NCBI GenBank assembly: GCA_903825315.1
Contig: CAIKAD010000003.1
Span: 11,053 to 75,052 of the forward strand
Source: an uncultured Candidatus Peregrinibacteria bacterium
Lineage (GTDB): Bacteria; Patescibacteriota; Gracilibacteria; Peribacterales; Peribacteraceae
Direction of reading: 5' to 3'
DNA: 64,000 nucleotides
In this document: positions 7,918 through 58,771 of the stretch, piece after piece
Position numbering within the stretch: position 1 is the first letter of the stretch
Layout of the letters: each line of letters opens with the position of its first letter
Translations under genes and position numbers: made by a program
Notes under the pieces: model-generated
The model's input: the letters and a program-made list of their open reading frames with translations, nothing else
Databases searched by the model: none
Told to the model about the DNA's origin: nothing

Positions 7918-7928
7918 CCCCATACCCT

Positions 7929-13176: not shown

Positions 13177-13179
13177 TTC

Positions 13180-16389: not shown

Positions 16390-16483
16390 AGGAGTAACAG
16401 AATAACAGAGTAAGAGAATAACAGGGATCCTCTCCGAACCCAGAAACCTGTTATTCTGCTCTTCCCTTATTCCATTATTCCCT
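16390..16483. repeat. low-complexity inverted-repeat element (AATAACAG units)
   Basis: gagtaacagaataacagagtaagagaataacaggg on the left, cctgttattctgctcttcccttattccattattcc on the right. Confidence 0.7.
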
Positions 16484-28930: not shown

Positions 28931-29043
28931 GAGAAGAATTTGGAATCCGGAATGTAGAATTTTGAGAGCCATTACTACGCTTTTCATGATTGATAATTAC
29001 TCATTCCAAATTCAACATTCAAGATACTAGATTCCAAGTCTTG
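28931..29043. repeat. low-complexity inverted-repeat element (GAATTTGGAAT units)
   Basis: gaatttggaatccggaatgtagaatttt on the left, cattccaaattcaacattc on the right. Confidence 0.6.
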
Positions 29044-31757: not shown

Positions 31758-31846
31758 AAAAATTCCAATGTTCAATGAACAATGATCAAAACGCTTCGTT
31801 CCCGGGATCGTTTTGGATCATTGGAATTTTGATAATTGGTCATTCT
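31758..31846. repeat. hairpin element, CCAATGATCA/TTGGTCATT family, conserved-loop subtype
   Basis: aaaattccaatg...aatgatcaaaacg CTTCGTTCCCGGGAT cgttttggatcattggaatttt. Confidence 0.75.
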
Positions 31847-32285: not shown

Positions 32286-32362
32286 ATCAATGACCAAGTA
32301 AACAATGATCAAAACGCCCCTGCTGAGGATCGTTTTGGGATTTTGGAAAATTGGTTCATTCT
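32286..32362. repeat. hairpin element, same family, CCCTGCTG-loop subtype
   Basis: caatgatcaaaacg CCCCTGCTGAGGAT cgttttggg. Confidence 0.7.
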
Positions 32363-32363
32363 C

Positions 32364-33131
32364 TCAAGAGAGAGGTTCCGATTTCCCATACCGCACTACC
32401 AGCGACGGAAAAACGAGAACAGCATTCAGAATGCGCCGCGCGCGCCACGGCTCCCGCACAAGACGCCACGCCCACTCGCATCCGAGTTTCTGGACGATCT
32501 GCGGCGCACGCTTCTGGACACCGGTAAGAAAGTCGAACGCGCCGCCCACGCCCATCGCCACTTTGACGCTCGTGAGGGACGGGAGGTAGCGCCTGATCCA
32601 CAGCTCCTGCGCAGGCGAGCCGAACGCTACAAAGAGGACGGAAGGATTGGACGCATTGATGCGCGCAATGATTTCCCGCACGTCGCTTTCCCGCGGTGAC
32701 CCGGCATAGGTGCCGGCAATCTTGAGGCGCGCGTTCCGCTCCTTAAGGCGCAGCGCTGCTTTTTCCGCCACGCCCGGTTTTGCACCAAGGAGAAAAACAG
32801 GATGGTCCGGCGTTAGGACGCGGCACAGCTCCTGCATGGTATCCACGCCCGTCACCCTGTGGGGGAGTGACTGCCTGGTGAGTCGCGCCATCCAGAGCAG
32901 CCCCGCACCGTCCGGCAGATTGAGGCTCGACGACTGCAAAATGCGCCGGAACTCGCGGTTGCGAACGGCCTCCACCAGCATCTCGCTGTTGGGGGTAACC
33001 ACCTGATGCTGGCGATGGCTCTCCAGAAAATGAAGAACCCTCATCACCGCAGCATCCATGGTGAGGGAATCGATGGGAATCCCCAGTAGTGTGACTTTGC
33101 CCGCAGAATCATCGGAAGAATGGGCCACCAT
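32364..33131 (-). CDS. WecG/TagA/CpsF-family glycosyltransferase (ManNAc transferase-like)
   Basis: LLGIPIDSLTMDAAV, VVTPNSEMLVEA, LPDGAGLLW and GVGGAFDF motifs. Confidence 0.8.
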   Translation of the reverse strand: MVAHSSDDSAGKVTLLGIPIDSLTMDAAVMRVLHFLESHRQHQVVTPNSEMLVEAVRNREFRRILQSSSLNLPDGAGLLWMARLTRQSLPHRVTGVDTMQELCRVLTPDHPVFLLGAKPGVAEKAALRLKERNARLKIAGTYAGSPRESDVREIIARINASNPSVLFVAFGSPAQELWIRRYLPSLTSVKVAMGVGGAFDFLTGVQKRAPQIVQKLGCEWAWRLVREPWRARRILNAVLVFPSLVVRYGKSEPLS

Positions 33132-38112: not shown

Positions 38113-38224
38113 GAAAATCCCAATGATCAACTATCAATTCTCAAAACGCTTCGTCGCCCGGACCGTTATTGATCATTGAAGATTGACAATTAATCATTCG
38201 ATATGTCGGCATTTGGTCATTCTC
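38113..38224. repeat. hairpin element, CCAATGATCA/TTGGTCATT family, conserved-loop subtype
   Basis: cccaatgatcaa...tcaaaacg CTTCGTCGCCCGGAC cgttattgatcattg...ttggtcattc. Confidence 0.7.
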
Positions 38225-38247: not shown

Positions 38248-39225
38248 ATGCCGGGATCAGTCAGCATCCTCATTCCCACCTACCAGCCGAACACAGCCTT
38301 CCTTCGGGAAGCAGTCCAATCGGTGCTCGCACAGACGCACACGAACTGGCAACTCCTCATTCACGATGACGCGTCGGATGTGGATGTCATGGACGGCATC
38401 GCACCTTTTCTATTGGATCCCCGGATTCGCGCGGAGCGGAACATCATTCGTCTGGGAATCGGCGGAAACTGGAATGCCTGCCTTCAACAGGCTTCGGGGG
38501 ATTACGTCGCCTTCCTCTTCCAAGATGATGTGTGGCATCCGGAGTATCTCAAGGAAGCAGTGGCAGCATTGGAACGGGAACCGCGCGTGGGACTTGTTGC
38601 CTCCTTTCATGCGTACCAAACGGACGGGAGCGCCGAGGCGGCAACATTTCTCAAGACCGCCGGCTTCGATGCTGTGCAGGAAACACGGCGCCATGCCATG
38701 CAACCGGGACAATGTGACGGCAGGGTATTTTTGAAGATGTGGACCGGGCGCGGCCTGCATCCCAACCTCATCGGTGAGCCGAGCTTTGTGGTGCTGCGGA
38801 AATCCGTTGTGGACAAGGTTGGCTTCTTCCGCGAAGACATGCCGCAAGGATTGGATCTGGAATACTGGACGCGCGCTCTCCTGGCGAGCGACCTCTTTAC
38901 CATCACCCGGGAATCCGGTTTCTTCCGCGTCCATCCTTCCGCTGCAAGCATGCAAAACGACCAAACCGGCGCCGGCCTCACCGACCGTTTGCGCTGCATC
39001 GAGTCGTTGATGTCAGCATCCACGACACCACGCGATCTCAAGGATATCGCGCGCCAAACCTTCTCCTTCCAGCTCTCCATGATGTTCCGCAAAGCGCGCA
39101 AGCGTCGGGAAGAGGGGAAGAGCATGGGGAAGGGGAACGCTCGATCGGTCTTGCCGATCCTCTTGCATCATCCACTTCTGACTCTTCAATCACTCGTAAT
39201 GTCCGGGCAGAAGAATCAGGAATAG
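38248..39225 (+). CDS. family-2 glycosyltransferase
   Basis: VSILIPTYQPN....AVQSVLAQTHTNWQLLIHDDASD. Confidence 0.75.
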   Translation: MPGSVSILIPTYQPNTAFLREAVQSVLAQTHTNWQLLIHDDASDVDVMDGIAPFLLDPRIRAERNIIRLGIGGNWNACLQQASGDYVAFLFQDDVWHPEYLKEAVAALEREPRVGLVASFHAYQTDGSAEAATFLKTAGFDAVQETRRHAMQPGQCDGRVFLKMWTGRGLHPNLIGEPSFVVLRKSVVDKVGFFREDMPQGLDLEYWTRALLASDLFTITRESGFFRVHPSAASMQNDQTGAGLTDRLRCIESLMSASTTPRDLKDIARQTFSFQLSMMFRKARKRREEGKSMGKGNARSVLPILLHHPLLTLQSLVMSGQKNQE

Positions 39226-39306
39226 TGAATCATGAATCAAGAACGTCGCTTGATCCGATTCTTCATTCTTACTTCTACATTCTTTATTCCTAATACCTGA
39301 TTCTTC
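39210..39306. repeat. low-complexity inverted-repeat element (AAGAATC units)
   Basis: The outer arms agaagaatcagg / cctgattcttc are exactly complementary. The inner part carries gaatcatgaatcaagaa / attcttcattctt units. Confidence 0.7.
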
Positions 39307-39315
39307 GGCCTCCAT

Positions 39316-40398: not shown

Positions 40399-41268
40399 AT
40401 GGCAAAGCAGAACACCTACGCGCCGGTCCGGATCCTGCAGGAATCGTGGGAATACCTGCGCAAGCAGCCAGTGTTGAGCTGGGTTCTCGTGTGGCTCCTC
40501 ATTCTCCCCACCGTCCTGTCGTCGTGGGTGGACCGCGTCTGGAAGGCGCAGCGGGGATTTGTCCCAGGCAACGCACTGCACTTTGAGCCACTGGACCTGT
40601 TCTACCTCTCCCTCTCCATCTTCTTCGCCCTCCTCACACTGTGGGGCGTGAGCGCTGTGCTGCTCGTAGGCAAGCGCATGGTAGTACGCCGCGCGGGAAG
40701 GACCCGCTCTTCCTTCCGGCGCGTTATCCTCGACGCTCTACCCATGGTCTTCCCGCTCCTCCTCACCTCCATCCTCCAGCAGTGCCTCGTGTTCTACCGC
40801 GCACTGCTCTACATCATCCCAGTGGGAATGGCGTTCTATGTCATCCACCGCGCCCTCCTGGGCCCTGCCGACGCAGCGCGCGCAGCCTTTCTGTCACTTC
40901 TCATTCTCTCACCCCTCCTCATTCCCGCGGTCGTGTACTGGCTGCGGACCATCCTCTTCCCCGCCGTATTCGGCTGCGAGGAGAAGGCATACCGCGAGGC
41001 ACTCCAACGGAGCAGCGCACTCATACGCGGGCGTTTCGGCCCGGTAGTGCTCACCATCCTTGCCCTCGCACTCCTCACCTTCCTTCCTGCCATAATCATT
41101 TCGTGGGTCACTGCTCTTCTTACGCCCGCTGGCCCTGTGCTGTTGCCCTACGCTATGGATATCATCCATGCCGCCCTCTCATCCACCGCGCTCCTGATGT
41201 TCATCCTGGCCATGACCGGACTGTACGGGAGGCTCAAAGAGAATGCGCCGAAGCATGTGGAGGTTTGA
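40399..41268 (+). CDS. polytopic membrane protein, unknown function
   Basis: About 6 hydrophobic helices. ATG at 40399 (MAKQNTY...). Confidence 0.5.
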   Translation: MAKQNTYAPVRILQESWEYLRKQPVLSWVLVWLLILPTVLSSWVDRVWKAQRGFVPGNALHFEPLDLFYLSLSIFFALLTLWGVSAVLLVGKRMVVRRAGRTRSSFRRVILDALPMVFPLLLTSILQQCLVFYRALLYIIPVGMAFYVIHRALLGPADAARAAFLSLLILSPLLIPAVVYWLRTILFPAVFGCEEKAYREALQRSSALIRGRFGPVVLTILALALLTFLPAIIISWVTALLTPAGPVLLPYAMDIIHAALSSTALLMFILAMTGLYGRLKENAPKHVEV

Positions 41269-41270
41269 TA

Positions 41271-41358
41271 CAATGAACCAATAGTCCAAAATCCCAATTC
41301 CCAAAATGACCCTGCTGTCATTCGTTTTGGTCATTGATAATTGGTCATTGGTCATTCG
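41271..41358. repeat. hairpin element, same family, CCCTGCTG-loop subtype
   Basis: ccaaaatcccaattcccaaaatga CCCTGCTG tcattcgttttggtcattgataattggtcattggtcatt. Confidence 0.7.
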
Positions 41359-44703: not shown

Positions 44704-44775
44704 GTGTTTTCTTGATAGTATAGCGGAAAATGATGATTTGGTGAAGGTGGGGAATCTTGACAGCCTGAAGATGTA

Positions 44776-44898
44776 GAGGAAACGAAGGAATCAGAGGATG
44801 CAGAAGAGAAATCCCTCAGGAATACGATAAATGACCTCTCCTCTGCTTCTTCTGCATCATTTGCTTCTTCTGCGTCTTTTGCCTCCTCTGCATCCTCC
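44776..44898. repeat. low-complexity inverted-repeat element (GCAGAAG/GATGCAG units)
   Basis: ggaatcagaggatgcagaagag on the left. ctctgcttcttctgcatcatttgcttcttctgcg...cctctgcatcctcc on the right. Confidence 0.7.
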
Positions 44899-44958
44899 CA
44901 AGTCCTATCACTATCACCACCGAACCTGTACCATAACCCCAGTCCTTACTCCGTTCCT

Positions 44959-48007: not shown

Positions 48008-48099
48008 GAATTGAAAATTGAAAATGAGAAATGGAAAATTCTGAAAGCTATTGAAATCCCGAATGACTTCCATCATTTTCAATTTTTCATTTCCCATTC
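48008..48099. repeat. low-complexity inverted-repeat element (TGAAAAT/GGAAAAT units)
   Basis: ttgaaaattgaaaatgagaaatggaaaat on the left, catcattttcaatttttcatttcccattc on the right. Confidence 0.7.
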
Positions 48100-50313: not shown

Positions 50314-51567
50314 TCAGGTGCCCTCCTGCCAGCTACTGAGGTACTTCTTCTGTTCCTCGGTGAGTTCGTCGATCGCAATACCCATCACCTCCAGCTGCGT
50401 CGTGGAAATGAAGTCATCGATCTCCCGCGGAAGCGTGATGACGGTGGGCTTCATGTTTCCCCTGTTCTTCACGAGATACTCACATGCGAGCACCTGGCCG
50501 CAGAAACTGAGGCTCATGACTTCGCTGGGATGCCCTTCTGCCGACGCGAGATTAACCAGCCGCCCTTCGCCGGCAACATACAGAACACGGCCGGACGGCA
50601 TCTTGTATTCGTCAAGGTAATGACGCACGCGACGCTTGGACTTGGCTGTTTTTTCCAGATCCACAAGATCAATTTCGCAGTCGAAATGGCCGGAGTTGGC
50701 GAGCACGGCCCCATCCTTCATCTTCTCCATGTGTTTCACAGTGAGCACGTGGATATCGCCTGTAACGGTGACAAAAATATCGCCCCAGCAGGCGGCATCT
50801 TCCATCTTCATCACCAAATGGCCGTCCATGGCGGCCTGCATCGCCTTGAAGGGATCAACTTCGGTCACTATCACCCGTGCCCCCAACCCCTTCGCGCGCA
50901 TCGATACGCCCTTGCCGCAACTCCCATACCCGGCAACGACGACTGTTTTTCCCGCCACGAGGATATTCGTGGAGCGGAGGATGCCGTCGAACGTGGACTG
51001 GCCCGTGCCGTAGTAGTTATCGAAGAGGTGCTTGGTCTTGTTGTCGTTCACCGCGATCATTGGGCACTTGAGCACGCCATCCCGCTCCATCGCACGCAAC
51101 CGGATAATGCCGGTAGTCGTCTCCTCGCACCCGCCGATCAGGCCGGACAACAGTTCCGGATGCTTGGTATGCAGGAGCGTGACAAGATCACACCCGTCAT
51201 CGATAGTAATGTGTGGCTTGGTCTTTAATACTTCCTCAAGGTACGTGTAGTAGTCCTCCTTCGATTCGCCTTTGTACGCCCACACCTGCACGTCCTTCTC
51301 CTCCGCAAGAGCGGCAGCCACATCATCCTGCGTGCTGAGGGGATTGCACCCGGTGATGGCCACCTTCGCCCCGCCTGCAACAAGAGTCTTGACCAGTATG
51401 CCTGTCTCCTTGGTCACGTGCAGCGCCATGCCGATGGTGAGCCCTTGGAAGGGCTTCTCTCTGGCAAAACGCTCACCAAGCTTGAGCAGCGCACCCATGC
51501 GCTTTTCGGCAATTTCGAGATTGAGGCGGCCTTGCGCCGCTAAAGAGGGATCTTTGACGGAAGACAT
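50314..51567 (-). CDS. ahcY: adenosylhomocysteinase
   Basis: 417-aa ORF with CNPLSTQDDVAAAL, GYGSCGKG and HFDCEID motifs. Confidence 0.95.
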   Translation of the reverse strand: MSSVKDPSLAAQGRLNLEIAEKRMGALLKLGERFAREKPFQGLTIGMALHVTKETGILVKTLVAGGAKVAITGCNPLSTQDDVAAALAEEKDVQVWAYKGESKEDYYTYLEEVLKTKPHITIDDGCDLVTLLHTKHPELLSGLIGGCEETTTGIIRLRAMERDGVLKCPMIAVNDNKTKHLFDNYYGTGQSTFDGILRSTNILVAGKTVVVAGYGSCGKGVSMRAKGLGARVIVTEVDPFKAMQAAMDGHLVMKMEDAACWGDIFVTVTGDIHVLTVKHMEKMKDGAVLANSGHFDCEIDLVDLEKTAKSKRRVRHYLDEYKMPSGRVLYVAGEGRLVNLASAEGHPSEVMSLSFCGQVLACEYLVKNRGNMKPTVITLPREIDDFISTTQLEVMGIAIDELTEEQKKYLSSWQEGT

Positions 51568-51578
51568 GGAACGAGTGT

Positions 51579-51670
51579 AATGGAAAATGAGAAATTGGAA
51601 ATTGAAAATGACAGAAACAACTCAAGAAACAATCATAACTTCCAAATTTTCCATTTTGCATTTTCAATGT
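51579..51670. repeat. low-complexity inverted-repeat element (GGAAAAT/TGAAAAT units)
   Basis: aatggaaaatgagaaattggaaattgaaaatga on the left, ccaaattttccattttgcattttcaatg on the right. Confidence 0.7.
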
Positions 51671-51705
51671 TCATGCGTCAACGCAACAAAGAATCAGACA
51701 ACTGA

Positions 51706-52653
51706 TCAGGGCAACGCAGGGAGCGCCTCCCCATACGCCGTCTCCGCACGGCTGAGGACATCATTCAAATCGAGCTTATCGAGAAGCGTCCCTTCCTGTT
51801 CCACGACAAAGGACGCAACCGAGGCGCCGAGCATACCGCATTGCTTCAAACCCCATTTGGCAGACATCCCCGTAAGGAAGCCTGCGCGGAACGCATCACC
51901 AGCCCCCGTGGGGTTCATGACCTTCTCGGGCTTGCATGCAGGCAACACGATCTGCCCCTTGGAATTGTAGATCGTAAAACCATCCTCCGCCTGCGTGATG
52001 ATGAGGAACGGCGCATGCTCCAGGAGTTGCTCGATACTGAACGATGTTCGCTTGGAAATCAGACTCCACTCGTACGCATTGGCGATGACGCCGGCAGACT
52101 TGTCGATGGCACGCACGAGCTCTTCTTCGGAAAGCGCCATCACTTGCTGACCAGGATCGAAAAGGTAGGGGACTGCGTACTGCTGGCACCATGCCACCGC
52201 CTGCACCATCACACGCGCATCGCGCGGACTGATGATACCCACGCCCACATCGTCGCGTTCCTCGGAAAGGTCAGGGAAACTCCCCGCCGCATCCGCGCCG
52301 GGATGGAAGAACGTAATCTGGTGTTCACCGGAGTCGGTGGCAACAATGGCCGTGGCTGTCACATGGGCCCTCTGCACTTCCACCCGGTTCGTGGCAATGC
52401 CCTTCTCCTCGAGCAAAGCCGTGTACGCACCACCGTCATTCCCTACCGTGCCTACGAGCAGAGGGTCTTGGTTGAGCAGCTTGAGGTTCCACGCAATATT
52501 TGCCCCCGTGCCGCCGTGGTGCCTGGCAAACCGACTCGTGACGAATGCCATGCTCAGTTCATCGAGATGCGCGGGATCGATGGCTTCCGGAAAGGAGCCG
52601 TCGTACTGGAGGAGGAGGTCGTAGGCGATGGAGCCAGATACTAAGATCTTCAT
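51706..52653 (-). CDS. PfkB-family ribokinase-like kinase (adenosine-kinase-like by context)
   Basis: MKILVSGSIAYD and GGTGANIAW. C-terminal NPTGAGDAFRAGFL is the PfkB signature. The ATG at 52653 is preferred over the ORF-track start inside the repeat. Confidence 0.75.
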   Translation of the reverse strand: MKILVSGSIAYDLLLQYDGSFPEAIDPAHLDELSMAFVTSRFARHHGGTGANIAWNLKLLNQDPLLVGTVGNDGGAYTALLEEKGIATNRVEVQRAHVTATAIVATDSGEHQITFFHPGADAAGSFPDLSEERDDVGVGIISPRDARVMVQAVAWCQQYAVPYLFDPGQQVMALSEEELVRAIDKSAGVIANAYEWSLISKRTSFSIEQLLEHAPFLIITQAEDGFTIYNSKGQIVLPACKPEKVMNPTGAGDAFRAGFLTGMSAKWGLKQCGMLGASVASFVVEQEGTLLDKLDLNDVLSRAETAYGEALPALP

Positions 52654-52662
52654 GCAACGGAG

Positions 52663-52691
52663 AGTGTGCCTGTTATTTGTGCGTCTGGCAA
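52663..52691 (-). promoter_or_regulatory. candidate promoter (kinase side)
   Basis: Minus strand: TTGCCA-17 nt-CACACT, then 9 nt to the ATG. The same boxes occur in cassette copy 2. Confidence 0.4.
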
Positions 52692-52820
52692 AGGATGCAA
52701 AGGTTGCAGAAGATGCAGAAGAGGCAGAGGAATGATGATACATCGCTTCGAAAGCAGGGTGATGACTATTCCTCTGCATCCTCTGCTACCCCTGCATCTT
52801 CTGTATCTTTCCTGTGGTCG

Positions 52821-52849
52821 CTGACAACCTCCCACACACCCGCTACACT
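52821..52849 (+). promoter_or_regulatory. candidate promoter (ugd side)
   Basis: CTGACA-17 nt-TACACT, then 6 nt to the ATG at 52856. The same boxes occur in cassette copy 2. Confidence 0.4.
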
Positions 52850-52855
52850 CACAGC

Positions 52856-54178
52856 ATGAAGATCGCCGTCGTCGGAACCGGCTACGTAGGATTAGTCAGC
52901 GCCGCTTGCTTTGCGGAACTGGGCCACACAGTCACCGGCGTGGATATCGACGAAAAGAAAATCGCCATCCTCAAGGGGGGCAAGAGCACGATCTATGAAC
53001 CGGAGCTGGAGGAGCTGATTCAAAGGGGGCTCCAGAGCGGACACCTCTCCTTTACGACGGACCTGCAGAGCGTATTGCCCAATGTGGAAATCGTCTTCTC
53101 CGCAGTAGCGACGCCACCGGGCGAGGGCTACAAGGCCGACCTGCGCGCCGTATTCACCGTGGCCGAGACCGTGGCAAAGAACGCAACGCGGGGTCTTCTC
53201 TTCGTGAACAAGTCCACCGTACCCGTGGGCACCGGACAGAAGTGTGAGGAAACCATCACGCAGATTCTCAAGGATCGTGGCGCGCCATTCTCCATCCCCG
53301 TCGTCAGCAACCCGGAATTTTTGCGGGAAGGACTCGCCGTTCCGGACACGCTCATGCCGGACCGGATCGTCGTCGGTATCAATGCGAACGAGAAAGCACG
53401 GGAAATGATGGAAGAACTCTACAGGCCCTTGACCCGTGTAGGGCGCCCCCTCCTCTTTATGAGCCGCGAGAGCGCGGAAATTGTGAAATACGCCAGTAAC
53501 TCCTTCCTCGCCACCAAGATCAGCTTCATCAACATGCTCACGGAATTCGCAGAAATGACGGGCGCCAACATCCGCCACATCGCCGCAGGCCTGGGGCTCG
53601 ATAACCGCATCGGACCCAAATTCCTCCATGCGGGCATCGGCTACGGCGGCAGCTGCTTCCCCAAGGACGTCAAAGCTCTTCTTCAGACCGCCAAGGAGTA
53701 CGGCGTTGCGTTCGACATTATCGAGGCGACTGACGCCATCAACACGCGCCAGCGCTTCCGCTTCTTCGACAAAGTGCTCAAGGCGCTTCCCAAGAAGGCG
53801 ACTGTCGCGCTGTGGGGATTGAGTTTTAAGCCACGGACGGACGACATGCGCGAAGCGCCGAGCCTCGACTTCATTCCGCTTCTCTTAAAAGCCGGCCACT
53901 CCGTCAACGCATTCGACCCCGCAGCGATCGAGAATACCAAAAAGTTCTTCCCGCGCGAGATCACCTACGCGTCATCTCCGATGGAAGCCGCGACCGGAGC
54001 CGATACTGTCGTGGTCCTGACGGAGTGGGACATGTTCCGGGGGCAGGACCTGAAGGAACTGAAGAAGGTCATGAAGGGAAAGAATTTGTTTGATGGACGG
54101 AATGTGTACGAGCCATCAGAAGTAAGAGAGGCAGGACTGACGTATCATGGAATTGGAATCGGGGGATCCGAATGCTAA
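52856..54178 (+). CDS. ugd: UDP-glucose 6-dehydrogenase
   Basis: MKIAVVGTGYVGLVSAACFAELGH and GGSCFPKD motifs. Confidence 0.9.
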   Translation: MKIAVVGTGYVGLVSAACFAELGHTVTGVDIDEKKIAILKGGKSTIYEPELEELIQRGLQSGHLSFTTDLQSVLPNVEIVFSAVATPPGEGYKADLRAVFTVAETVAKNATRGLLFVNKSTVPVGTGQKCEETITQILKDRGAPFSIPVVSNPEFLREGLAVPDTLMPDRIVVGINANEKAREMMEELYRPLTRVGRPLLFMSRESAEIVKYASNSFLATKISFINMLTEFAEMTGANIRHIAAGLGLDNRIGPKFLHAGIGYGGSCFPKDVKALLQTAKEYGVAFDIIEATDAINTRQRFRFFDKVLKALPKKATVALWGLSFKPRTDDMREAPSLDFIPLLLKAGHSVNAFDPAAIENTKKFFPREITYASSPMEAATGADTVVVLTEWDMFRGQDLKELKKVMKGKNLFDGRNVYEPSEVREAGLTYHGIGIGGSEC

Positions 54179-54262
54179 ATGCACAATTTGAAATACGAAA
54201 TAAGCCGAAGATTTAACTGACATTTTGCATTTTGCGTGTCTCATTTTCCATTTACTCATTCC
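54176..54262. repeat. low-complexity element (GAAAT/CATTTT units)
   Basis: caatttgaaatacgaaataag on the left, cattttgcattttgcgtgtctcattttccatttactcattcc on the right. Confidence 0.6.
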
Positions 54263-54289
54263 TCTCATAACAGGCACAATCTCAGACGT

Positions 54290-55237
54290 ATGAAAATTCT
54301 CCTCACTGGCGCGGCCGGCTTCATAGGCTTCCACACTGCGCAACAGCTTCTCGCCCGCGGCGACGAGGTGATAGGCCTCGATAACTTTTCCCCGTACTAC
54401 GATCCGAAATTGAAAGAGGCACGGGCGGCGCAGCTGGAAGGAAAGAATGGATTCCAGATGATCCGTGCGGACATTCTGGACCGGGACGCAGTAAGCAAGG
54501 CAATGAAGGGATGCGACCGGGTGTGCCATCTCGCCGCGCTCGCCGGCGTGCGCTACGCCTTTGACCATCCCGACGAGTACATCGACATCAACATCCGGGG
54601 ATTCTTTAATGTATTGGATGAAGCGCGCAAGCAGGAGATTGCGGGGATGACCTATGCCTCCTCGAGCTCAGTGTACGGCGGCAACACTAAAATGCCGCTC
54701 GCCGAGACGGACCGCACCGATAACCAGCTCTCACTCTACGGCATGAACAAGAAGGACAACGAGCTGATGGCGCACGCGTACCACTCGCTCTACGGCCTTC
54801 CGGTTACCGGACTCCGGTTCTTTACGGTGTACGGCCCGTGGGGGCGGCCGGACATGGCACTCTTCCTCTTTACGGACGCCATCCTCCACAACCGCACACT
54901 CCAGATCTACGGTCAGGGAAAGATGCAACGCGACTTCACGTTTGTGGACGACATCGTCTCCGGCATCGTCGCGTCTATCGACAAGAACTTTCCTGAGGAA
55001 GTCTTCAATCTGGGCTGCGGCCGCACAGAGGAGTTGATGGACTATGTCGCCGCCGTGGAGAAGGCTTGCGGCAGGGAAGGGAAGAAGGAGTTCCTCCCCA
55101 TGCAGCCGGGTGACGTGGTGCGCACGGAAGCGGACATTGCCAAGGCAAAGAAGATGCTCGGCTTTGACCCCAAAACGCAGATCAAGGAAGGCGTGCCACG
55201 GTTCGTCGAGTGGTATAGGAAATACTACGGACTCTAA
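54290..55237 (+). CDS. UDP-glucuronate 4-epimerase-like SDR
   Basis: MKILLTGAAGFIG and YGMNKKDNE (YxxxK). RFFTVYGPWGRPDMA is typical of the GAE/LpsL/Cap1J group. Confidence 0.8.
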   Translation: MKILLTGAAGFIGFHTAQQLLARGDEVIGLDNFSPYYDPKLKEARAAQLEGKNGFQMIRADILDRDAVSKAMKGCDRVCHLAALAGVRYAFDHPDEYIDINIRGFFNVLDEARKQEIAGMTYASSSSVYGGNTKMPLAETDRTDNQLSLYGMNKKDNELMAHAYHSLYGLPVTGLRFFTVYGPWGRPDMALFLFTDAILHNRTLQIYGQGKMQRDFTFVDDIVSGIVASIDKNFPEEVFNLGCGRTEELMDYVAAVEKACGREGKKEFLPMQPGDVVRTEADIAKAKKMLGFDPKTQIKEGVPRFVEWYRKYYGL

Positions 55238-55242
55238 AAATA

Positions 55243-55326
55243 GCCAATTGTCCAAAATCCCAATGACCAAAAACGGTCCGGGGGACGAAGTGTTTTGGTT
55301 GTTGAACAATTGGTCATTGGTCATTT
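55243..55326. repeat. hairpin element, CCAATGA/TTGGTCATT family, conserved-loop subtype (inverted orientation)
   Basis: ccaattgtccaaaatcccaatgaccaaaaacg GTCCGGGGGACGAAG tgttttggttgttgaacaattggtcattggtcatt. The right arm encodes the last codons of the GT-C gene. Confidence 0.75.
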
Positions 55327-56516
55327 TCCCTCACCCACACCTCCGTCGGAAGATTGGGCAGCGTGACCCAGCCATCCCGCTTCTTCATGTCGTCACACTG
55401 ATCCAGGCAGACCACGGCTTGCGCATTGGTGAGTAAGGAAGGATGGAACCTCAGGACAGGGAAGGAACTCTCGTACTGCCAGTCATGCCCGAATGATCCG
55501 GCGATAAGGACGGTGCCCGTCTTACCCTGGAGCGCAATCGACTGCATCACGGCGCGGGACGCACCAGGCTTAAGGGACGGCGGAAAAAGCCCAACGCAGA
55601 GGACGGTAATGAGCGCGACGGGGCCGAGGACGGAGACAGGACTACTCCATGCGCGCCGAAGAAAGAGGACCATCCCCGCAACTAAGAGCGGCGTGAAGAG
55701 GATGGCGTAGTACATCCGGAAGGAGACGTAGAGGAACGCCGCAACGAGAGCCAAGCTCAGGAACATCGCCCACTGGCGATCCAGAGCCATGCCCACAATG
55801 CCCACAATTCCGATGAGGATGCTCCCGCCCACGCACCACGCCTGAAAAAGGGAGAGAGCCTTGTCCATGGGCGTAAGGGACGTATTGAGCGCGCCTGCGT
55901 TGACAAAGCTGGCCAAAATCGCGGGTTCCGCAATGCCGAAGAGAAGTGCGAGCGGAAGCGGTGCGAGAACATACAACGCTTTCTGCCACCACGGGAAACG
56001 GAGCGGGAGGAAGAGCGCGACGACGATGGGAAAGTAGAGGACGGCCTGGTACGCAGTGAGGAGCGAGACAAGCCACAGAAGCCCCGCTCCAAACGCTTGC
56101 CACGGCCCCCAGTTCTCGGGATTGCGTCGCGCTTCAAAGAGCAGCGCGAGAAAAAGGAGACCCTCCAGCGCCGTAAGGGGTGCCATCATCACCGAGCCTG
56201 CTTGCAGCACCACCGCGGCACAGAGGAGCCAAGCCGCCATCGTGGTAACGCGCTGATCGCGGGAGAGTTCACGCGCCATCCACCACACAATCCACGCCGC
56301 CTGCACCACAAGCGTGGCAAAGATGACGCGCCACAGGAGTTCCTGGTACGGGAAGCGCGATGTGAGCGCGATGAGGGACCGCGCGAGCGGCGGATGCGGG
56401 TACGGAATATTGAGGAGGTACTTCGCCTCGTCTGTGCGGACTCCGCCGATGGCCTGCACCCACGCAAGGAGCAGCGCATACAACTCGAAAAGAATGGCGT
56501 ACATCAGCTTCCGCAT
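55314..56516 (-). CDS. GT-C-fold membrane glycosyltransferase (ArnT/PMT-like, GT39/GT83-type)
   Basis: 400-aa polytopic ORF. First-loop motif RTDEAKYLLNIPYPHPPL. Confidence 0.6.
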   Translation of the reverse strand: MRKLMYAILFELYALLLAWVQAIGGVRTDEAKYLLNIPYPHPPLARSLIALTSRFPYQELLWRVIFATLVVQAAWIVWWMARELSRDQRVTTMAAWLLCAAVVLQAGSVMMAPLTALEGLLFLALLFEARRNPENWGPWQAFGAGLLWLVSLLTAYQAVLYFPIVVALFLPLRFPWWQKALYVLAPLPLALLFGIAEPAILASFVNAGALNTSLTPMDKALSLFQAWCVGGSILIGIVGIVGMALDRQWAMFLSLALVAAFLYVSFRMYYAILFTPLLVAGMVLFLRRAWSSPVSVLGPVALITVLCVGLFPPSLKPGASRAVMQSIALQGKTGTVLIAGSFGHDWQYESSFPVLRFHPSLLTNAQAVVCLDQCDDMKKRDGWVTLPNLPTEVWVRENDQ

Positions 56517-56812
56517 GGGTGCAGTTCGGAAGTGGCAAACGTAAAGGCGAAGCAGGCGGGAGGATCGGGATTGCGGCGGTGTTCACGATGGAGGAACGCC
56601 AGACCATCGGTGGTCACTTCCCGGATTTCCATATCCGAGAGATTCCATCCCTGAGACGTGGAGACCTGCTGCAAGGCAACATTCGCCTTGTCCCGTACGG
56701 ATGCATCCAAGTACAGCGGACGTATCCGCCACGCACGCACCGCCTGCGGCCCCGCGAGAGCAAGGATCAGCACAAGGAAGAGGAGGGCCGGAACGCGGGA
56801 AGGACGATGCAT
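56504..56812 (-). CDS. small secreted protein
   Basis: The ATG at 56812 gives MHRPSRVPALLFLVLILALAGPQAVRA. It overlaps the upstream GT2 stop by 1 nt (TGATG) and the downstream GT-C start by 13 nt. Confidence 0.4.
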   Translation of the reverse strand: MHRPSRVPALLFLVLILALAGPQAVRAWRIRPLYLDASVRDKANVALQQVSTSQGWNLSDMEIREVTTDGLAFLHREHRRNPDPPACFAFTFATSELHPCGS

Positions 56813-57519
56813 CAGACTGACCGGGTGAAAATACGCCGCACGGCTGCGCCGAGGAGCGATGCCAGGAACTGCCATTGTACGCGCAGCGACAACTTGCTCG
56901 CTCCCGCCGTGCGCGTGCGGAACGTATACGGGACTTCCGCAGCCGGCGTACGCGCCGGGACGCGAAGGAGGATATCAAAAAGAATCTTGAACCCTTTGGG
57001 ATGCAGGGTTGGAGCAATAGCTTCAAAGACTTTTCGGTCCACCGCGAAGAAACCACTCATGGGATCTCTGACCTTCACGCGGCACAGCGCAATGGAAAGG
57101 CGCGTGGCCACGCGACTGAGCACATGGCGGCGCTCGTCCCACTCACCCACGCTGCCACCCGGAACGTAGCGCGAACCGACCGCGATGCCACTCTTCTCTT
57201 TCACGATCCGATACATCTCGGGGAGGATACGCAAGTCATGCTGGCCATCGGCATCGGCTGCGGCGAGCACATCACCACGCGCCACAGCAAAGCCCTCCAT
57301 CACCGCCGTCGAAAGCCCCCGCCGTCCCACGCGTCGGATCACCCGAACGCGCAGGTCGGTACCGGAGAGCCTTTCCGCCACCCGCCACGTGTGGTCCGGC
57401 GAATCATCATCCACCACAATAATCTCGTACGGCAGGTCCTTGAGAATCTCCGCCAATTCCGGAAGGACGCGCGGCAGGTTCTCAGCCTCGTTGTACGTGG
57501 GCAGGACTAGCGAAAGCAT
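56812..57519 (-). CDS. polyprenyl-phosphate glycosyltransferase (DPM1/Ppm1/ArnC-like GT2)
   Basis: MLSLVLPTYNEAENL, IIVVDDDSPD and DADGQHD motifs. Confidence 0.8.
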   Translation of the reverse strand: MLSLVLPTYNEAENLPRVLPELAEILKDLPYEIIVVDDDSPDHTWRVAERLSGTDLRVRVIRRVGRRGLSTAVMEGFAVARGDVLAAADADGQHDLRILPEMYRIVKEKSGIAVGSRYVPGGSVGEWDERRHVLSRVATRLSIALCRVKVRDPMSGFFAVDRKVFEAIAPTLHPKGFKILFDILLRVPARTPAAEVPYTFRTRTAGASKLSLRVQWQFLASLLGAAVRRIFTRSV

Positions 57520-57528
57520 ACTGTTGAT

Positions 57529-57558
57529 AGTGTAGCGGGTGGGGAGGGAGGTTGTCAG
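57529..57558 (-). promoter_or_regulatory. candidate promoter (GT2 side)
   Basis: Minus strand: CTGACA-18 nt-TACACT, then 9 nt to the ATG at 57519. Confidence 0.4.
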
Positions 57559-57696
57559 TGACCGCTGGAAAGATGCAGAAGATGCAGGGGTAGCAAAGGA
57601 TGCAGAGGAATGGTCATCACCCTGCTTCCGAAGCGATTTACCATCATTCCTCTGATTCTCCTGCATCTTCTGCATCTATTGATCCCCCTGCATCCT

Positions 57697-57725
57697 TTGC
57701 CAGATCCATCCTCCACAGGCACACT
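57697..57725 (+). promoter_or_regulatory. candidate promoter (SDR side)
   Basis: TTGCCA-17 nt-CACACT, then 8 nt to the ATG at 57734. Confidence 0.4.
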
Positions 57726-57733
57726 GTCCGTGC

Positions 57734-58651
57734 ATGAAAATCCTCGTGACAGGATCATCGGGAACCATTGGCACGCGCCTCTGCGAGACGCTCCTTGAGC
57801 ATGGGGACGAGGTAATCGGAATCGACTGGGTGGCCAACAAGTGGAACGAGAACGTGGAAGCGGTCACGCGCCACATTGATTTGCGGGACGAAGTAGAGGT
57901 GGCAAACCTCGACCTCCCCAAGGATATTGATGCCGTGGTGCACCTGGCCGCCAATGCCCGTGTGTACGAGCTCGTGGAACACCCGGACCGCGCCCGCGAC
58001 AACTTCGTGACGCTCTTCAACGCGCTGGAGATGGCGCGGACCACGGGGATCCCGCGTTTCCTCTTCGCTTCCTCACGCGAAGGATATGGGAACATCCAGG
58101 CAAAGCAGTACACGGAAGACCTCGTACGCGTGGAGAACTGCGAAAGCCCCTACACCGCGAGCAAGGTGGGCGGCGAAGCATTGGTGGAGGCCTATACGCG
58201 CTGCTACGGAATCGACCACGTGATCTTCCGCTTCAGTAATGTCTACGGAATGTACGATGACTCGGTGCGCGTGGTGCCACTCTTCATCCGCAAAGCACGC
58301 AAGAATGAGCCGCTCATGGTGTACGGCAAGGAGAAATGCCTCGACTTCACATACATCGACGATGCCATCGACGGCATCCTCAAAGCCCTGGATAACTTTG
58401 AGCACGCCAAGAACGGCACGTACAACGTCGCATACGGCGAAGGAACGACCATCGTTCACCTCGCAGAGCGCGTCAAGAAACTACTCGGAAGCTCCTCCCC
58501 GCTCGAAGTCGGTGTGCCGCGCACAGGGGAAGTGGTCCGTTACGTGGCAAACATCACCAAGGCCAAGGAAACCTTCGGCTACGAACCCCGGGTACCGTTT
58601 GAAGAGGGGATCGAGAAGGCGGTGGCGTGGTACGAGGAACATAAGGTCTGA
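57734..58651 (+). CDS. NAD-dependent epimerase/dehydratase (SDR)
   Basis: MKILVTGSSGTIG and YTASKVGGE (YxxxK). Confidence 0.75.
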   Translation: MKILVTGSSGTIGTRLCETLLEHGDEVIGIDWVANKWNENVEAVTRHIDLRDEVEVANLDLPKDIDAVVHLAANARVYELVEHPDRARDNFVTLFNALEMARTTGIPRFLFASSREGYGNIQAKQYTEDLVRVENCESPYTASKVGGEALVEAYTRCYGIDHVIFRFSNVYGMYDDSVRVVPLFIRKARKNEPLMVYGKEKCLDFTYIDDAIDGILKALDNFEHAKNGTYNVAYGEGTTIVHLAERVKKLLGSSSPLEVGVPRTGEVVRYVANITKAKETFGYEPRVPFEEGIEKAVAWYEEHKV

Positions 58652-58685: not shown

Positions 58686-58771
58686 GAAAAGAATCATGAA
58701 TACAGAATCAAGAATCAAGATATTCATTATTCTTAATTCCTAATTCTTAATTCTTCTTATTCTCCTCGTGA
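58686..58771. repeat. low-complexity inverted-repeat element (AAGAATC units)
   Basis: gaatcatgaatacagaatcaagaatcaaga on the left, attcttaattcctaattcttaattcttcttattc on the right. It overlaps the 3' end of the FAD gene. Confidence 0.7.

What the first reader, a model, noticed from the sequence alone, without database searches (positions are those of the whole stretch)
52654..52855. A ~200-bp back-to-back promoter cassette is duplicated in inverted orientation upstream of glycan genes
The whole divergent spacer 52654-52855 (PfkB kinase <-> ugd) aligns by eye with the reverse complement of 57520-57733 (DPM1-like GT2 <-> SDR).

About 130 bp on the ugd/GT2 side are near-identical: aggaatgatgRtaMatcgcttcgRaagcagggtgatgacYattcctctgcatcctYtgctacccctgcatcttctgYatctttcc...ctgacaacctccc...cacccgctacact.

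Both ends carry conserved -35/-10-like boxes. CTGACA-17/18-TACACT sits 6-9 nt from the ATG. TTGCCA-17-CACACT sits 8-9 nt from the ATG.

Conservation is much higher than among the other palindromic elements. That suggests a recent duplication or a shared cis-regulatory module co-controlling the two envelope-glycan operons. The conserved central hairpin (AGGAATGATG...ATGACYATTCCT around CGCTTCGRAAGCAGGGTGATG) could be an operator or an RNA element.
Basis: seen in the sequence. Interest (0 to 1): 0.65.

Follow-up and report, generated by a model that had tools for sequence, protein, structure and literature searches.

The report
Duplicated two-way promoter spacer with palindrome
Two stretches between back-to-back sugar-envelope genes of an uncultured groundwater-type bacterium are real inverted copies of each other, most likely because one was recently copied onto the other by recombination rather than because they hold a conserved control switch.

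Summary
Spacer 52654-52855 aligns over its full length with the reverse complement of 57520-57733. Identity is 81% of 212 columns, and 90% over 127 columns from the loop to the ugd/GT2-side -10 box. No other pair of intergenic regions in the window comes close (score 232, next 77, median 17).

The genome is a Peribacteraceae (Peregrinibacteria, CPR) metagenome-assembled genome. Each spacer has two outward sigma-70-like promoters with -10 boxes 6-9 nt from the ATG. This leaderless design is general in the genome. Between them lies a ~120-130-bp imperfect palindrome of 9-nt units, one of many such intergenic palindromes.

In about 33 related genomes the promoter ends are conserved at the same positions. 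The palindrome is not: it is absent (spacers of 47-55 nt) or different, even in the closest relatives. One relative (L010) has its own cassette of unrelated sequence in three copies. Another (L008/L009) has the gene block between the two spacers inverted.

Best reading: recurrent gene conversion or recombination between divergent spacers of the same architecture ("promoter reuse"). A conserved operator or RNA element is not supported. Genome-wide copy number and transcription start sites remain untested.

The parts
52654..52855 (.). Spacer A: the whole divergent intergenic region between PfkB-family kinase (minus) and ugd (plus)
   Evidence: Gene starts confirmed by public gene calls and Pfam. 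Aligns with the reverse complement of spacer B.
57520..57733 (.). Spacer B: the whole divergent intergenic region between GT2 (minus) and SDR epimerase/dehydratase (plus). It is an inverted copy of spacer A.
   Evidence: (I1, I2).
52663..52691 (-). Type-1 promoter-like site of PfkB: TTGCCA (52686-52691), 17 nt, CACACT (52663-52668), then 9 nt to the ATG. Contains the motif ACAGGCACACT (52663-52673).
   Evidence: Read. Motif positions. The same motif is conserved upstream of orthologues.
52691..52810 (.). Palindrome A. The arms 52691-52733 and 52768-52810 are built of 9-nt units (GATGCAGAA type). The 5' arm is purine-rich and the 3' arm pyrimidine-rich. Loop 52734-52767.
   Evidence: I1: 43 nt, 74% complementary. 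DNA fold -27.9 kcal/mol, z = -4.2. Purine fractions 0.69 / 0.34.
52821..52849 (+). Type-2 promoter-like site of ugd: CTGACA, 17 nt, TACACT, then 6 nt to the ATG at 52856.
   Evidence: 2 matches in the window against 0.01 expected. The pattern lies upstream of ugd in many relatives.
57529..57558 (-). Type-2 promoter-like site of GT2: CTGACA, 18 nt, TACACT, then 9 nt to the ATG at 57519.
57571..57700 (.). Palindrome B. The 9-nt-unit arms are 57571-57609 and 57648-57700. The loop equivalent to A's is 57612-57645.
   Evidence: I4: 35 nt, 80%; I7: 30 nt, 87%. DNA fold -34.2 kcal/mol, z = -5.2.
57697..57725 (+). Type-1 promoter-like site of SDR: TTGCCA, 17 nt, CACACT, then 8 nt to the ATG at 57734. 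Contains ACAGGCACACT (57715-57725).
54270..54280 (+). Third copy of the type-1 core motif (ACAGGCACAAT), 9 nt upstream of the epimerase ATG at 54290. It has no palindrome of its own; an orphan pyrimidine-rich half-arm lies at 54217-54252.
   Evidence: (I11, I20). The motif is also upstream of this gene's orthologues in L006 and L014.
52856..57519 (.). The 4.7-kb block bracketed by the two inverted spacers: ugd(+), epimerase(+), 400-aa membrane protein(-), 102-aa protein(-), polyprenyl-phosphate-sugar-synthase-like GT2(-).
   Evidence: Pfam and NCBIfam. The gene order is conserved in almost all of the roughly 90 fetched loci that cover it. The block is inverted relative to its flanks in L008/L009.
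51706..52653 (-). PfkB-family sugar/nucleoside kinase gene, driven by the type-1 end of spacer A.
57734..58651 (+). SDR-family NAD-dependent epimerase/dehydratase gene, driven by the type-1 end of spacer B.

Best explanation
**What each spacer is.** Each spacer is a back-to-back pair of sigma-70-type promoters. Their -10 boxes sit 6-9 nt from the start codons, so the mRNAs are leaderless or nearly so. A long imperfect palindrome of 9-nt units separates the two promoters.

**Which parts are functional.** The promoter ends are old, functional and conserved at these genes across the family. The palindrome is a fast-evolving, dispensable filler. It belongs to a class that populates many intergenic regions of Peregrinibacteria genomes.

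**Why the two spacers are near-identical (inferred).** The identity comes from intragenomic copying: gene conversion, or inversion-linked homologous recombination. The two spacers lie 4.7 kb apart in inverted orientation. They already share the same architecture: the same promoter motifs at both ends, and MKIL-coding Rossmann N-termini on one side. These supply homology anchors. The palindrome itself is a likely break or stall site that starts repair from the other copy. In the window, the best-conserved tract (loop, right arm, ugd/GT2-side promoter) looks like a B-to-A conversion that left A's older left arm in place.

**Consequence.** ugd and the GT2 operon now have almost the same promoter and upstream DNA. 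The block between the spacers is flanked by 200-bp inverted repeats that can invert it.

**Shown and inferred.**
- Shown: the homology, the conservation of the ends, the non-conservation of the centre, recurrence in other genomes, and an inversion in a relative.
- Inferred: the recombination mechanism, the promoter activity and the leaderless starts.
For: 1. Similarity fills the spacer and ends at or just inside the start codons. The flanking genes on the ugd/GT2 side are not paralogues.
2. The within-genome similarity is an extreme outlier: score 232 against a next best of 77.
3. Orthologous spacers of the closest relatives (L006, L014; 86-87% protein identity) share only the promoter ends with the window. 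They carry different palindromes or none. L005 has a 52-nt spacer B in which the two promoters abut. So the centre is young.
4. Of about 34 genomes with both spacers, only the window (232) and L010 (216) score highly for A against the reverse complement of B. L077 is weaker (75). In the tree the window is sister to L006/L014 and L010 is sister to L012, so these are separate events.
5. The L010 cassette has 7-nt arm units and a different loop. It is present in three divergent spacers of the same cluster at 86-93% identity. That is similarity within a genome and difference between genomes, the signature of concerted evolution.
6. The high-identity tract has different ends in the two genomes. In the window it runs from the loop to the type-2 promoter. 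In L010 it runs from the type-1 promoter to the end of the hairpin. This fits conversion tracts and does not fit a discrete element.
7. In L008/L009, exactly the block between the two spacers is inverted relative to both flanks. Each gene keeps its proximal promoter end.
8. A's hairpin pairs less well than B's (74% against 80-87% complementary; -27.9 against -34.2 kcal/mol). This is expected if only part of A was overwritten.
9. The promoter reading has comparative support. It is also supported genome-wide: 15 of 28 ATG genes have TANNNT ending 4-12 nt before the ATG (shuffles: mean 4.6, maximum 10), and only 1 of 28 has a Shine-Dalgarno-like motif.
Against: - No direct evidence of recombination exists.
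- A and B still differ at 10-19% of positions, so the event is not very recent, or the palindrome mutates fast.
- The homology anchors are short and imperfect: about 20-30 nt at 80-88%. That is marginal for RecA-type recombination.
- Related palindromes are scattered at non-homologous places. The 9-nt-unit family occurs at 13066-13177, 44767-44903 and the left edge of the window. L061 has copies at 984-1155 and 8757-8929, and L008 at 810-899 and 8882-8964. So some transposition-like spread of the palindromes cannot be excluded.
- Three copies in L010, all at sugar genes, could also reflect selection for co-regulation.
- Only about 76 kb of a roughly 1.2-Mb genome could be searched.
- No inverted-orientation variant was seen among 10 contigs of this population.
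Confidence: 0.58

Rival explanations
1. **Mobile palindrome carrying outward promoters (Correia-, MITE- or REPIN-like).** The cassette, or its palindromic core, is a non-autonomous mobile element. It inserted separately into both spacers, and into three spacers in L010, bringing promoter boxes with it.
For: - Families of related palindromes are dispersed in the window. Five members of the 9-nt-unit family share arm sequence up to the loop. Three or four members of a CAAAACGCTTCG...CGTTTTG family share loops.
- Within-locus duplicates occur at non-homologous places in L061, L008 and L019.
- L005 looks like an empty site.
- In other lineages the palindromes enclose a 23S-rRNA-IVS-protein gene, and L057 holds a decayed remnant of one, as expected for autonomous and miniature forms.
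- The pair meets the operational definition of a 'putative mobile promoter'.
Against: - There are no discrete common ends and no target-site duplication visible against the L005 empty site.
- Similarity runs to the start codons, and into the coding sequence on one side.
- The high-identity tract has different ends in the window and in L010.
- The other family members share only the low-complexity arms with A and B, not the loop or flanks.
- Only two full copies exist in about 76 kb. The loop pattern was absent from the JGI metagenome collection.
- No transposase was found among the 36 window proteins scanned.
- The promoter ends are present at these genes in relatives that lack any palindrome, so the element did not bring them.
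Confidence: 0.22
2. **Selected shared regulatory module.** The whole cassette, hairpin included, is kept alike by selection. A lineage-specific factor would bind the palindrome (or its cruciform or RNA form) and co-regulate ugd, the GT2 operon, PfkB and SDR.
For: - The copies sit only at sugar-nucleotide and glycan genes, three of them in L010.
- The end motifs are conserved and specific to these genes.
- In L010 a small dyad next to the type-1 -10 box (TTTCTCGC-N3-GCGAGAAA) keeps its symmetry through a double change in the third copy (TTCCTCGC-N3-GCGAGGAA).
- The palindromes are more stable than shuffled sequence (z = -4.2 and -5.2).
Against: - The palindrome is not conserved between even the closest genomes and is missing from many.
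- The loop is no more conserved than the arms.
- The same kind of palindrome sits between unrelated housekeeping genes in every orientation.
- No regulator gene lies in or next to the cluster.
- Selection for 'sameness' without sequence conservation has no obvious mechanism.
Confidence: 0.17
3. **Chance resemblance or assembly artefact.** The match would come from two low-complexity spacers resembling each other by chance, or from misassembly.
For: - The arms are low-complexity 9-nt repeats, and such arms cross-match at 72-85% between unrelated elements.
Against: - The non-repetitive loop and the promoter flanks are also 87-88% identical.
- The pair scores three times higher than any other.
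- Sequences are identical in three independent assemblies.
- The two copies differ at 19% of positions, so they are not a collapsed or duplicated assembly path.
Confidence: 0.01

Closest known systems
Putative mobile promoters / promoter reuse (Matus-Garcia, Nijveen & van Passel 2012; PMC3575422)
   Same: Highly similar upstream DNA (at least 80% over at least 50 nt) lies in front of non-paralogous genes in one genome. The mechanism of spread is unknown. Most families described are pairs with about 92% identity.
   Different: Here the whole divergent spacer, with two promoters and a palindrome, is the unit. The copies are inverted and bracket a conserved gene block. The same two or three spacers have been homogenised independently in different genomes.
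Concerted evolution of inverted duplicates by gene conversion, with occasional inversion (for example tufA/tufB of Salmonella; from my own knowledge)
   Same: Two inverted copies in one chromosome stay alike within a genome while diverging between genomes. Recombination between them can invert the intervening segment.
   Different: The copies here are 200-bp non-coding spacers, not genes. The homology available to start exchange is short. RecA dependence is untested.
Correia elements of Neisseria and REP/REPIN/ERIC extragenic palindromes (PMC3116915, PMC3733652; Correia properties from my own knowledge and as cited in PMC3575422)
   Same: Intergenic palindromic repeats that can fold as hairpins and sit next to, or supply, promoter boxes. 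Family members are dispersed in the genome.
   Different: The Peregrinibacteria palindromes are long (arms of 25-50 nt) and built of tandem 7-9-nt units mirrored in the two arms. They are mostly unique or low-copy. They always have the purine-rich arm 5'. They have no GTAG/CGTC head, no visible TA duplication and no known transposase.
Divergent (bidirectional) promoter regions of capsule or glycan loci, for example the 134-bp syn-ctr intergenic region of Neisseria meningitidis (PMC12131743, abstract only)
   Same: One short intergenic region drives two oppositely oriented polysaccharide operons.
   Different: No regulator or RNA thermosensor is evident here. The transcripts appear leaderless. 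The region is duplicated.
23S rRNA intervening sequences with an IVS-protein ORF (Pfam PF05635)
   Same: In relatives (L001, L051, L058/L061, L079/L083/L084) the palindrome in spacer A encloses a PF05635 gene between long inverted flanks. This is the architecture of rRNA intervening sequences excised by RNase III.
   Different: The window's two palindromes have 34-nt loops and no ORF. They lie between protein genes, not in rRNA. Processing is untested.

Membership tests
Sigma-70-type back-to-back (divergent) promoter region | Two outward-facing -35/-10 hexamer pairs with 16-19-nt spacing | tested here: met
   CTGACA-17/18-TACACT passes the consensus scan on both spacers (2 matches against 0.01 expected). 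TTGCCA-17-CACACT is present on the other side of both spacers, but its -10 box matches only 3 of 6 consensus positions.
Sigma-70-type back-to-back (divergent) promoter region | Boxes conserved at orthologous positions in related genomes | tested here: met
   The type-2 pattern lies upstream of ugd or GT2 in about ten other lineages. ACAGGCACAMT lies upstream of PfkB, SDR, epimerase or amine-oxidase-like genes in seven other lineages.
Sigma-70-type back-to-back (divergent) promoter region | Mapped transcription start sites | not testable with these tools
   No transcript data are available. The leaderless reading rests on -10 boxes lying 4-12 nt from the ATG in 15 of 28 genes, and a Shine-Dalgarno-like motif in only 1 of 28.
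Putative mobile promoter (PMP) pair | At least 80% identity over at least 50 nt in the -150 to -50 region of two genes in one genome | tested here: met
   The region upstream of ugd and GT2 is 90% identical over 127 columns. The definition is taken from PMC3575422.
Putative mobile promoter (PMP) pair | Adjacent coding sequences are not paralogous | tested here: met
   On one side the genes are ugd (UDPG_MGDP_dh) and GT2 (Glycos_transf_2). On the other they are PfkB and an SDR epimerase. Only the first ~14 nt (MKIL) are alike on the PfkB/SDR side.
Concerted evolution by gene conversion between inverted repeats | Copies are more alike within a genome than orthologous copies are between genomes | tested here: met
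   Window A against B gives 232, and L010 A against B gives 216. In contrast, window against L006/L014 matches only the promoter end (32 bits or less).
Concerted evolution by gene conversion between inverted repeats | Independent recurrence and variable tract ends | tested here: met
   The two cases fall in separate clades of the tree. The tract ends differ between the window and L010. L010 has a third copy.
Concerted evolution by gene conversion between inverted repeats | Dependence on homologous recombination functions | not testable with these tools
   This needs genetics. recA and ruv are reported for Peribacter genomes (PMC4736985).
REP / REPIN | Short (20-40 bp) palindrome with a conserved GTAG or CGTC head | tested here: not met
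   The arms are 43-50 nt and the whole element is 120-130 nt. No such head is present at the arm ends (sequence).
REP / REPIN | High copy number and an associated RAYT transposase | tested here: inconclusive
   Five 9-nt-unit relatives occur in 64 kb, but they share arms only. None of the 36 window proteins scanned is a transposase. The rest of the genome was not seen.
MITE / Correia-like element | Discrete ends with terminal inverted repeats and a target-site duplication | tested here: not met
   Similarity decays gradually and reaches the start codons. No duplication is visible when spacer B is compared with the 52-nt spacer of L005. L005 is only a 62%-identity relative, so this is weak evidence.
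Site-specific invertible segment (fimS, hin, Bacteroides PS-promoter type) | Short inverted repeats plus a nearby recombinase, with both orientations present in one population | tested here: not met
   No recombinase lies in or next to the cluster. All 10 contigs carrying the PfkB gene show one orientation. The inverted order is fixed only in another species (L008/L009).
Intrinsic terminator | GC-rich hairpin followed by a T-run at the 3' end of a gene | tested here: not met
   The scan finds no terminator-like site in either spacer. Both flanking genes point away from the palindrome.
Any described RNA family (Rfam 15) | Match at the gathering score | tested here: not met
   The only hit in the window is a tRNA. 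The permissive scan gives only sub-threshold plant miRNA-precursor hits (23 bits against a gathering score of 62-64), caused by the long hairpin shape.
IVS-like element with a PF05635 gene | 23S-rRNA-IVS-protein ORF between long inverted flanks | tested here: not met
   tblastn with the L001 protein finds no hit in the window. The loops of A and B are 34 nt long.

The most novel reading that the evidence does not exclude
Peregrinibacteria (CPR) may carry an undescribed class of intergenic elements. These are long palindromes whose two arms are mirrored arrays of 7-9-nt units, always with the purine-rich arm 5'. They turn over quickly, sometimes enclose a 23S-rRNA-IVS-protein gene, and sit against leaderless promoters or start codons.

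Under this reading they act as copy-and-paste cassettes. They would move promoters between divergent spacers of the envelope-glycan cluster. They would also create inverted repeats that flip the gene block. When transcribed, they might act as RNase III processing sites that generate 5'-terminal AUGs for leaderless translation. The window's pair would be one caught instance of such a system.
Probability: 0.2. Interest if true: 0.7.

Novelty: new variant of a known kind. Interest (0 to 1): 0.45.

Why it matters
Almost nothing is known about promoters, transcript architecture or non-coding DNA in the Candidate Phyla Radiation.

- **Promoter evidence.** This locus gives comparative evidence across about 35 genomes for sigma-70-like promoters placed 6-9 nt from the start codon, that is, a leaderless design.
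- **Exchange between non-coding spacers.** It is a clear example of whole divergent spacers being homogenised inside a genome. This happened independently in two lineages, and a relative carries an inversion of the bracketed gene block. This shows how co-regulation of envelope-glycan genes can be rewired without regulators in very small genomes.
- **Caution for motif hunters.** Within-genome similarity of spacers is not evidence of an operator.
- **The palindromes themselves.** The surrounding class of periodic-arm palindromes, and their link to IVS-protein genes, may deserve a study of their own.

Tried and rejected
1. **Known RNA families.** The Rfam gathering scan of the window and a permissive scan of 52400-58000 gave nothing relevant.
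2. **Copies in JGI metagenomes.** An exact-pattern scan for the loop (CGCTTCGNAAGCAGGGTGATG) gave 0 hits. Copy number elsewhere stays unknown.
3. **Reference genomes.** The scan with the 400-aa protein returned only one distant locus (L001, 46% identity).
4. **Inversion polymorphism in this population.** All 10 contigs with the PfkB gene have the same neighbours.
5. **A sigma-54 reading of the type-1 end (GGCAC...TTGCA).** Rejected. The GG-to-GC spacing is 14-15 nt instead of 12, and the epimerase copy lacks the TTGC.
6. **A conserved shared core in palindrome loops.** CGCTTCG occurs 25 times in the window against 16 expected and is present in only a few loops. Not pursued.
7. **Compensatory changes between A and B in the arms.** Not informative, with only two sequences and an ambiguous pairing register caused by the 9-nt periodicity.
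8. **A strict self-complementarity score for all 36 intergenic regions.** It highlights A and B (z = 7.8 and 7.0) but is too strict for the other imperfect palindromes. The census of the class therefore rests.
9. **Literature.** Searches for a description of these palindromes in Peregrinibacteria or the CPR found none.
10. **The 400-aa protein.** No Pfam, NCBIfam or PDB match.
Full report
**What is in the window.** The region 51.7-58.7 kb holds a sugar-nucleotide and glycan cluster:
- PfkB-family kinase, 51706-52653 (-)
- ugd, 52856-54178 (+)
- an SDR epimerase, 54290-55237 (+)
- a 400-aa membrane protein with no known family, 55314-56516 (-)
- a 102-aa protein, 56504-56812 (-)
- a polyprenyl-phosphate-sugar-synthase-like GT2, 56812-57519 (-)
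- a second SDR epimerase/dehydratase, 57734-58651 (+)

The two divergent spacers are A (52654-52855) and B (57520-57733). Homologues of the 400-aa protein are named only from Peregrinibacteria and Candidatus Peribacteraceae. The window's 57% G+C matches the 58.5% reported for Peribacter genomes of 1.25 Mb (PMC4736985). The window therefore comes from a CPR bacterium known only from metagenome assemblies.

- A aligns with the reverse complement of B from start codon to start codon. The ungapped core is 136 nt at 89%.
- By segment, the whole spacer is 81% identical (172/212 columns). The stretch 52724-52849 (loop, right arm and ugd/GT2-side promoter) is 90%. The right arm is 96%, the loop 88%, and the left arm 68% with a 9-nt indel. 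The 10 nt at the -35 end of the spacer between the -10 and -35 boxes on the PfkB/SDR side are only 40% identical.
- Among all 630 pairs of intergenic regions in the window, this pair scores 232. The next best is 77 and the median is 17.
- A profile of the pair finds just these two full-length copies in the window. It finds none in another ~12.5 kb of the same genome.
- Independent assemblies of the same population give identical spacers.

**Anatomy of each spacer.** Each spacer has three parts.

1. *Type-1 end (PfkB and SDR side).* TTGCCA-17-CACACT lies 8-9 nt from the ATG and is embedded in the motif ACAGGCACACT. This motif occurs exactly three times in the window. The third copy is 9 nt upstream of the epimerase at 54290.
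2. *Type-2 end (ugd and GT2 side).* CTGACA-17/18-TACACT lies 6-9 nt from the ATG.
3. *Central palindrome.* Between the two -35 boxes lies a long imperfect palindrome. Its arms are arrays of 9-nt GATGCAGAA-type units. In A the arms are 43 nt and 74% complementary. In B they are 30-35 nt and 80-87% complementary. As single-stranded DNA they fold far better than shuffled controls (z = -4.2 and -5.2). As RNA they fold equally well on either strand.

**The genome's general design.**
- The -10 position is not special to these genes. Of 28 ATG genes with at least 40 nt upstream, 15 have TANNNT ending 4-12 nt before the ATG (shuffles: mean 4.6, maximum 10). Only one has a Shine-Dalgarno-like motif. 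The genome therefore appears to use mostly leaderless transcripts.
- The palindrome is not special either. Local inverted repeats of the same style occur in at least 11 intergenic regions and about 18 by folding. Their arms are made of 7-, 8- or 9-nt units, and wherever the arms are skewed the purine-rich arm is 5'. They lie between tandem, convergent and divergent genes, most of them housekeeping.
- Other members of the 9-nt-unit family (13066-13177, 44767-44903 and the left edge of the window) share only the arm motif with A and B, not the loop or flanks.

**Comparison with relatives.** I fetched about 90 loci around orthologues of the 400-aa protein. The gene order amine-oxidase-like / SDR / <B> / GT2 / 102 aa / 400 aa / epimerase / ugd / <A> / PfkB / AdoHcyase is conserved throughout Peregrinibacteria. 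Three results matter.

*First, the promoter ends are conserved at orthologous positions.* CTGACA-N17-19-TACACT lies upstream of ugd or GT2 in about ten other lineages. ACAGGCACAMT lies upstream of PfkB, SDR, epimerase or neighbouring sugar genes in seven. The shortest spacers (47-49 nt) consist of just two -10 boxes back to back.

*Second, the palindrome is not conserved.*
- Spacer lengths range from 30 to 856 nt.
- L005 (62% identity for the 400-aa protein) has a 52-nt spacer B in which the TGGCAA box directly abuts the GCTACAAT box.
- The closest relatives, L006 and L014, have unrelated palindromes or none. They match the window's cassette only at the type-1 end.

*Third, similarity between A and B within a genome is rare but recurrent.*
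- Among about 34 genomes with both spacers, only the window (232) and L010 (216) score highly. L077 is weaker (75). All others score 12-45.
- The L010 cassette has 7-nt units and a different loop. It is present in a third divergent spacer of the same cluster, ugd-paralogue <-> amine-oxidase-like, at 86-93% identity.
- In a tree of four flanking proteins the window groups with L006/L014 and L010 groups with L012. The two homogenisations are therefore separate events.
- In the same clade, L008/L009 carry exactly the block between the two spacers in inverted orientation relative to both flanks. Each gene keeps its proximal promoter end.
- The PfkB<->GT2 spacer of L008 is the only foreign spacer that matches the window's cassette along its full length (51 bits).

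**Interpretation.**
- The pattern is alike within a genome, different between genomes, recurrent, with different tract ends in the window (loop to type-2 promoter) and in L010 (type-1 promoter to end of hairpin). This is the signature of concerted evolution by gene conversion or reciprocal recombination between inverted repeats. The L008/L009 inversion shows that exchange between these two spacers does happen.
- The conserved promoter motifs at both ends, and the similar MKIL-coding N-termini on one side, offer homology anchors. Long palindromes are known break and stall sites, which would start repair from the other copy. This last step is inference.
- In the window, A's hairpin pairs worse than B's. 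That fits a B-to-A conversion that replaced the loop, the right arm and the ugd promoter but left A's older left arm.
- The pair meets the operational definition of a 'putative mobile promoter' (PMC3575422). The net effect is that ugd and the GT2 operon now share nearly the same promoter and upstream DNA.

**Rivals.**
- *Correia/MITE-like mobile palindrome with outward promoters.* This cannot be dismissed. Palindrome families are dispersed. Duplicates occur at non-homologous places in L061, L008 and L019. In other lineages the palindrome of spacer A encloses a PF05635 IVS-protein gene, with a decayed remnant in L057. However, the A/B similarity has no discrete ends, reaches the start codons, and includes promoter ends that exist in relatives without any palindrome.
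- *Selection for a shared operator.* This is weakened by the lack of any between-genome conservation of the palindrome and by its presence at unrelated genes. The symmetric dyad next to the type-1 -10 box in L010 keeps its symmetry through a double change. It is the best hint of a protein-binding site, but it has no counterpart in the window.
- *Chance or assembly artefact.* Excluded.

**Limits.**
- Only about 76 kb of this genome could be read, and the loop pattern was not found in the JGI collection. Genome-wide copy number is therefore unknown.
- Promoter activity, leaderless starts, the structural state of the palindrome and the recombination mechanism are all inferred.
- No orientation variant was seen among 10 contigs, but consensus assemblies would hide minor variants.

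**Verdict.** The finding is real and is more than a curiosity of low-complexity sequence. Its most likely explanation is ordinary in kind: intragenomic copying of a divergent promoter spacer. The central hairpin is very unlikely to be a conserved operator or RNA. The interest lies in what the locus shows about CPR promoters, about recurrent spacer homogenisation and block inversion in a conserved glycan cluster, and about the undescribed periodic-arm palindromes that fill these genomes.

Noticed in passing
window 2430-2520, 7847-7920, 13066-13177, 14726-14800, 16391-16481, 28936-29037, 31759-31844, 32290-32367, 38114-38198, 39206-39310, 41265-41349, 44767-44903, 48009-48091, 51564-51673, 55239-55318, 58690-58755: Many intergenic regions hold long imperfect palindromes whose arms are mirrored arrays of 7-, 8- or 9-nt units. 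In 11 of the 18 measured (A and B included) the 5' arm is clearly purine-rich and the 3' arm pyrimidine-rich; none shows the opposite skew. They occur between tandem, convergent and divergent genes. Several end 5-8 nt from the next start codon. Similar elements with other units occur in most related loci, including the 35% G+C locus L001. I found no description of them in the literature.
   Followed up: partly
L001 13617-13976; L051 20209-20562; L058 13688-14044; L061 13654-14010; L079 5712-6053; L083 5733-6074; L084 13742-14083; remnant in L057 6028-6220: In at least four lineages the ugd<->PfkB spacer holds a 23S-rRNA-intervening-sequence-protein gene (PF05635, E = 8e-40). It sits in the loop of a periodic-arm palindrome, and the PfkB ATG lies only a few nt (under ten) after the right arm. 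L057 is 92-95% identical to L058 in coding DNA. It keeps only the 3' part of the ORF, between different arms. ORF-less palindromes may derive from such IVS-like cassettes.
   Followed up: partly
L008 7900-15086 (= L009 2723-9909): The block GT2 ... ugd is inverted relative to both flanks (AdoHcyase-PfkB on one side, SDR-amine-oxidase-like on the other). Both breakpoints lie inside the two divergent spacers. All other loci that cover the region share the window's order.
   Followed up: yes
L010 6017-6195, 8811-8989, 13680-13859: A Peribacteraceae genome (GCA_028703835.1) has three copies of its own whole-spacer cassette, with 7-nt units and a different loop, at 86-93% identity. Each lies between a type-2 gene (ugd paralogue, GT2, ugd) and a type-1 gene (amine-oxidase-like, SDR, PfkB).
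   Followed up: yes
L010 8830-8848 and 6158-6176: A perfect 8-bp dyad lies next to the type-1 -10 box: TTTCTCGC-N3-GCGAGAAA. In the third cassette copy it reads TTCCTCGC-N3-GCGAGGAA. This double change preserves the symmetry, which suggests a dimeric protein site or a small hairpin. The window has no equivalent.
   Followed up: no
window 52663-52673(-), 54270-54280(+), 57715-57725(+): ACAGGCACAMT occurs exactly three times in 64 kb, each time 8-9 nt upstream of a sugar-nucleotide gene start (PfkB, epimerase, SDR). It recurs at such genes in seven related lineages. It could be the -10 region of a small glycan regulon whose first -10 base is non-consensus.
   Followed up: partly
window, all genes with at least 40 nt upstream: Fifteen of 28 genes have TANNNT (often TGCTAYACT) ending 4-12 nt before the ATG. 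Only one has a Shine-Dalgarno-like motif. The genome appears to rely largely on leaderless mRNAs.
   Followed up: partly
window 31759-31845 vs 38114-38199 (and 55261-55297, reverse complement): This is the second-best spacer pair in the window, at 78-80% over 87 nt. The similarity includes the loop CAAAACGCTTCGT..CCCGG..CGTT. Both main copies lie in divergent spacers of unrelated genes, so sharing of palindromes beyond the arms is not unique to A and B.
   Followed up: no
window 54217-54252 vs 51579-51614: The ugd-epimerase spacer has an orphan pyrimidine-rich half-arm (CATTTTGCATTTTGCG...). It is 78% complementary to the left arm of the palindrome in the AdoHcyase-PfkB spacer, 2.6 kb away.
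   Followed up: no
window 55314-56516(-) and about 440 homologues: This 400-aa membrane protein appears restricted to Peregrinibacteria. Its invariant motifs are TDEAKYLL and IPYPHPP. It has no Pfam, NCBIfam or PDB match. It always lies next to a polyprenyl-phosphate-sugar-synthase-like GT2 and a 102-aa protein. It may be an unrecognised GT-C-type glycosyltransferase.
   Followed up: no
L061 984-1155 vs 8757-8929: A palindrome with a ~120-nt structured loop is duplicated at 86% identity. One copy is in spacer B and the other lies 7.7 kb away, downstream of a ugd paralogue. This is evidence that some of these elements spread to non-homologous sites.
   Followed up: no
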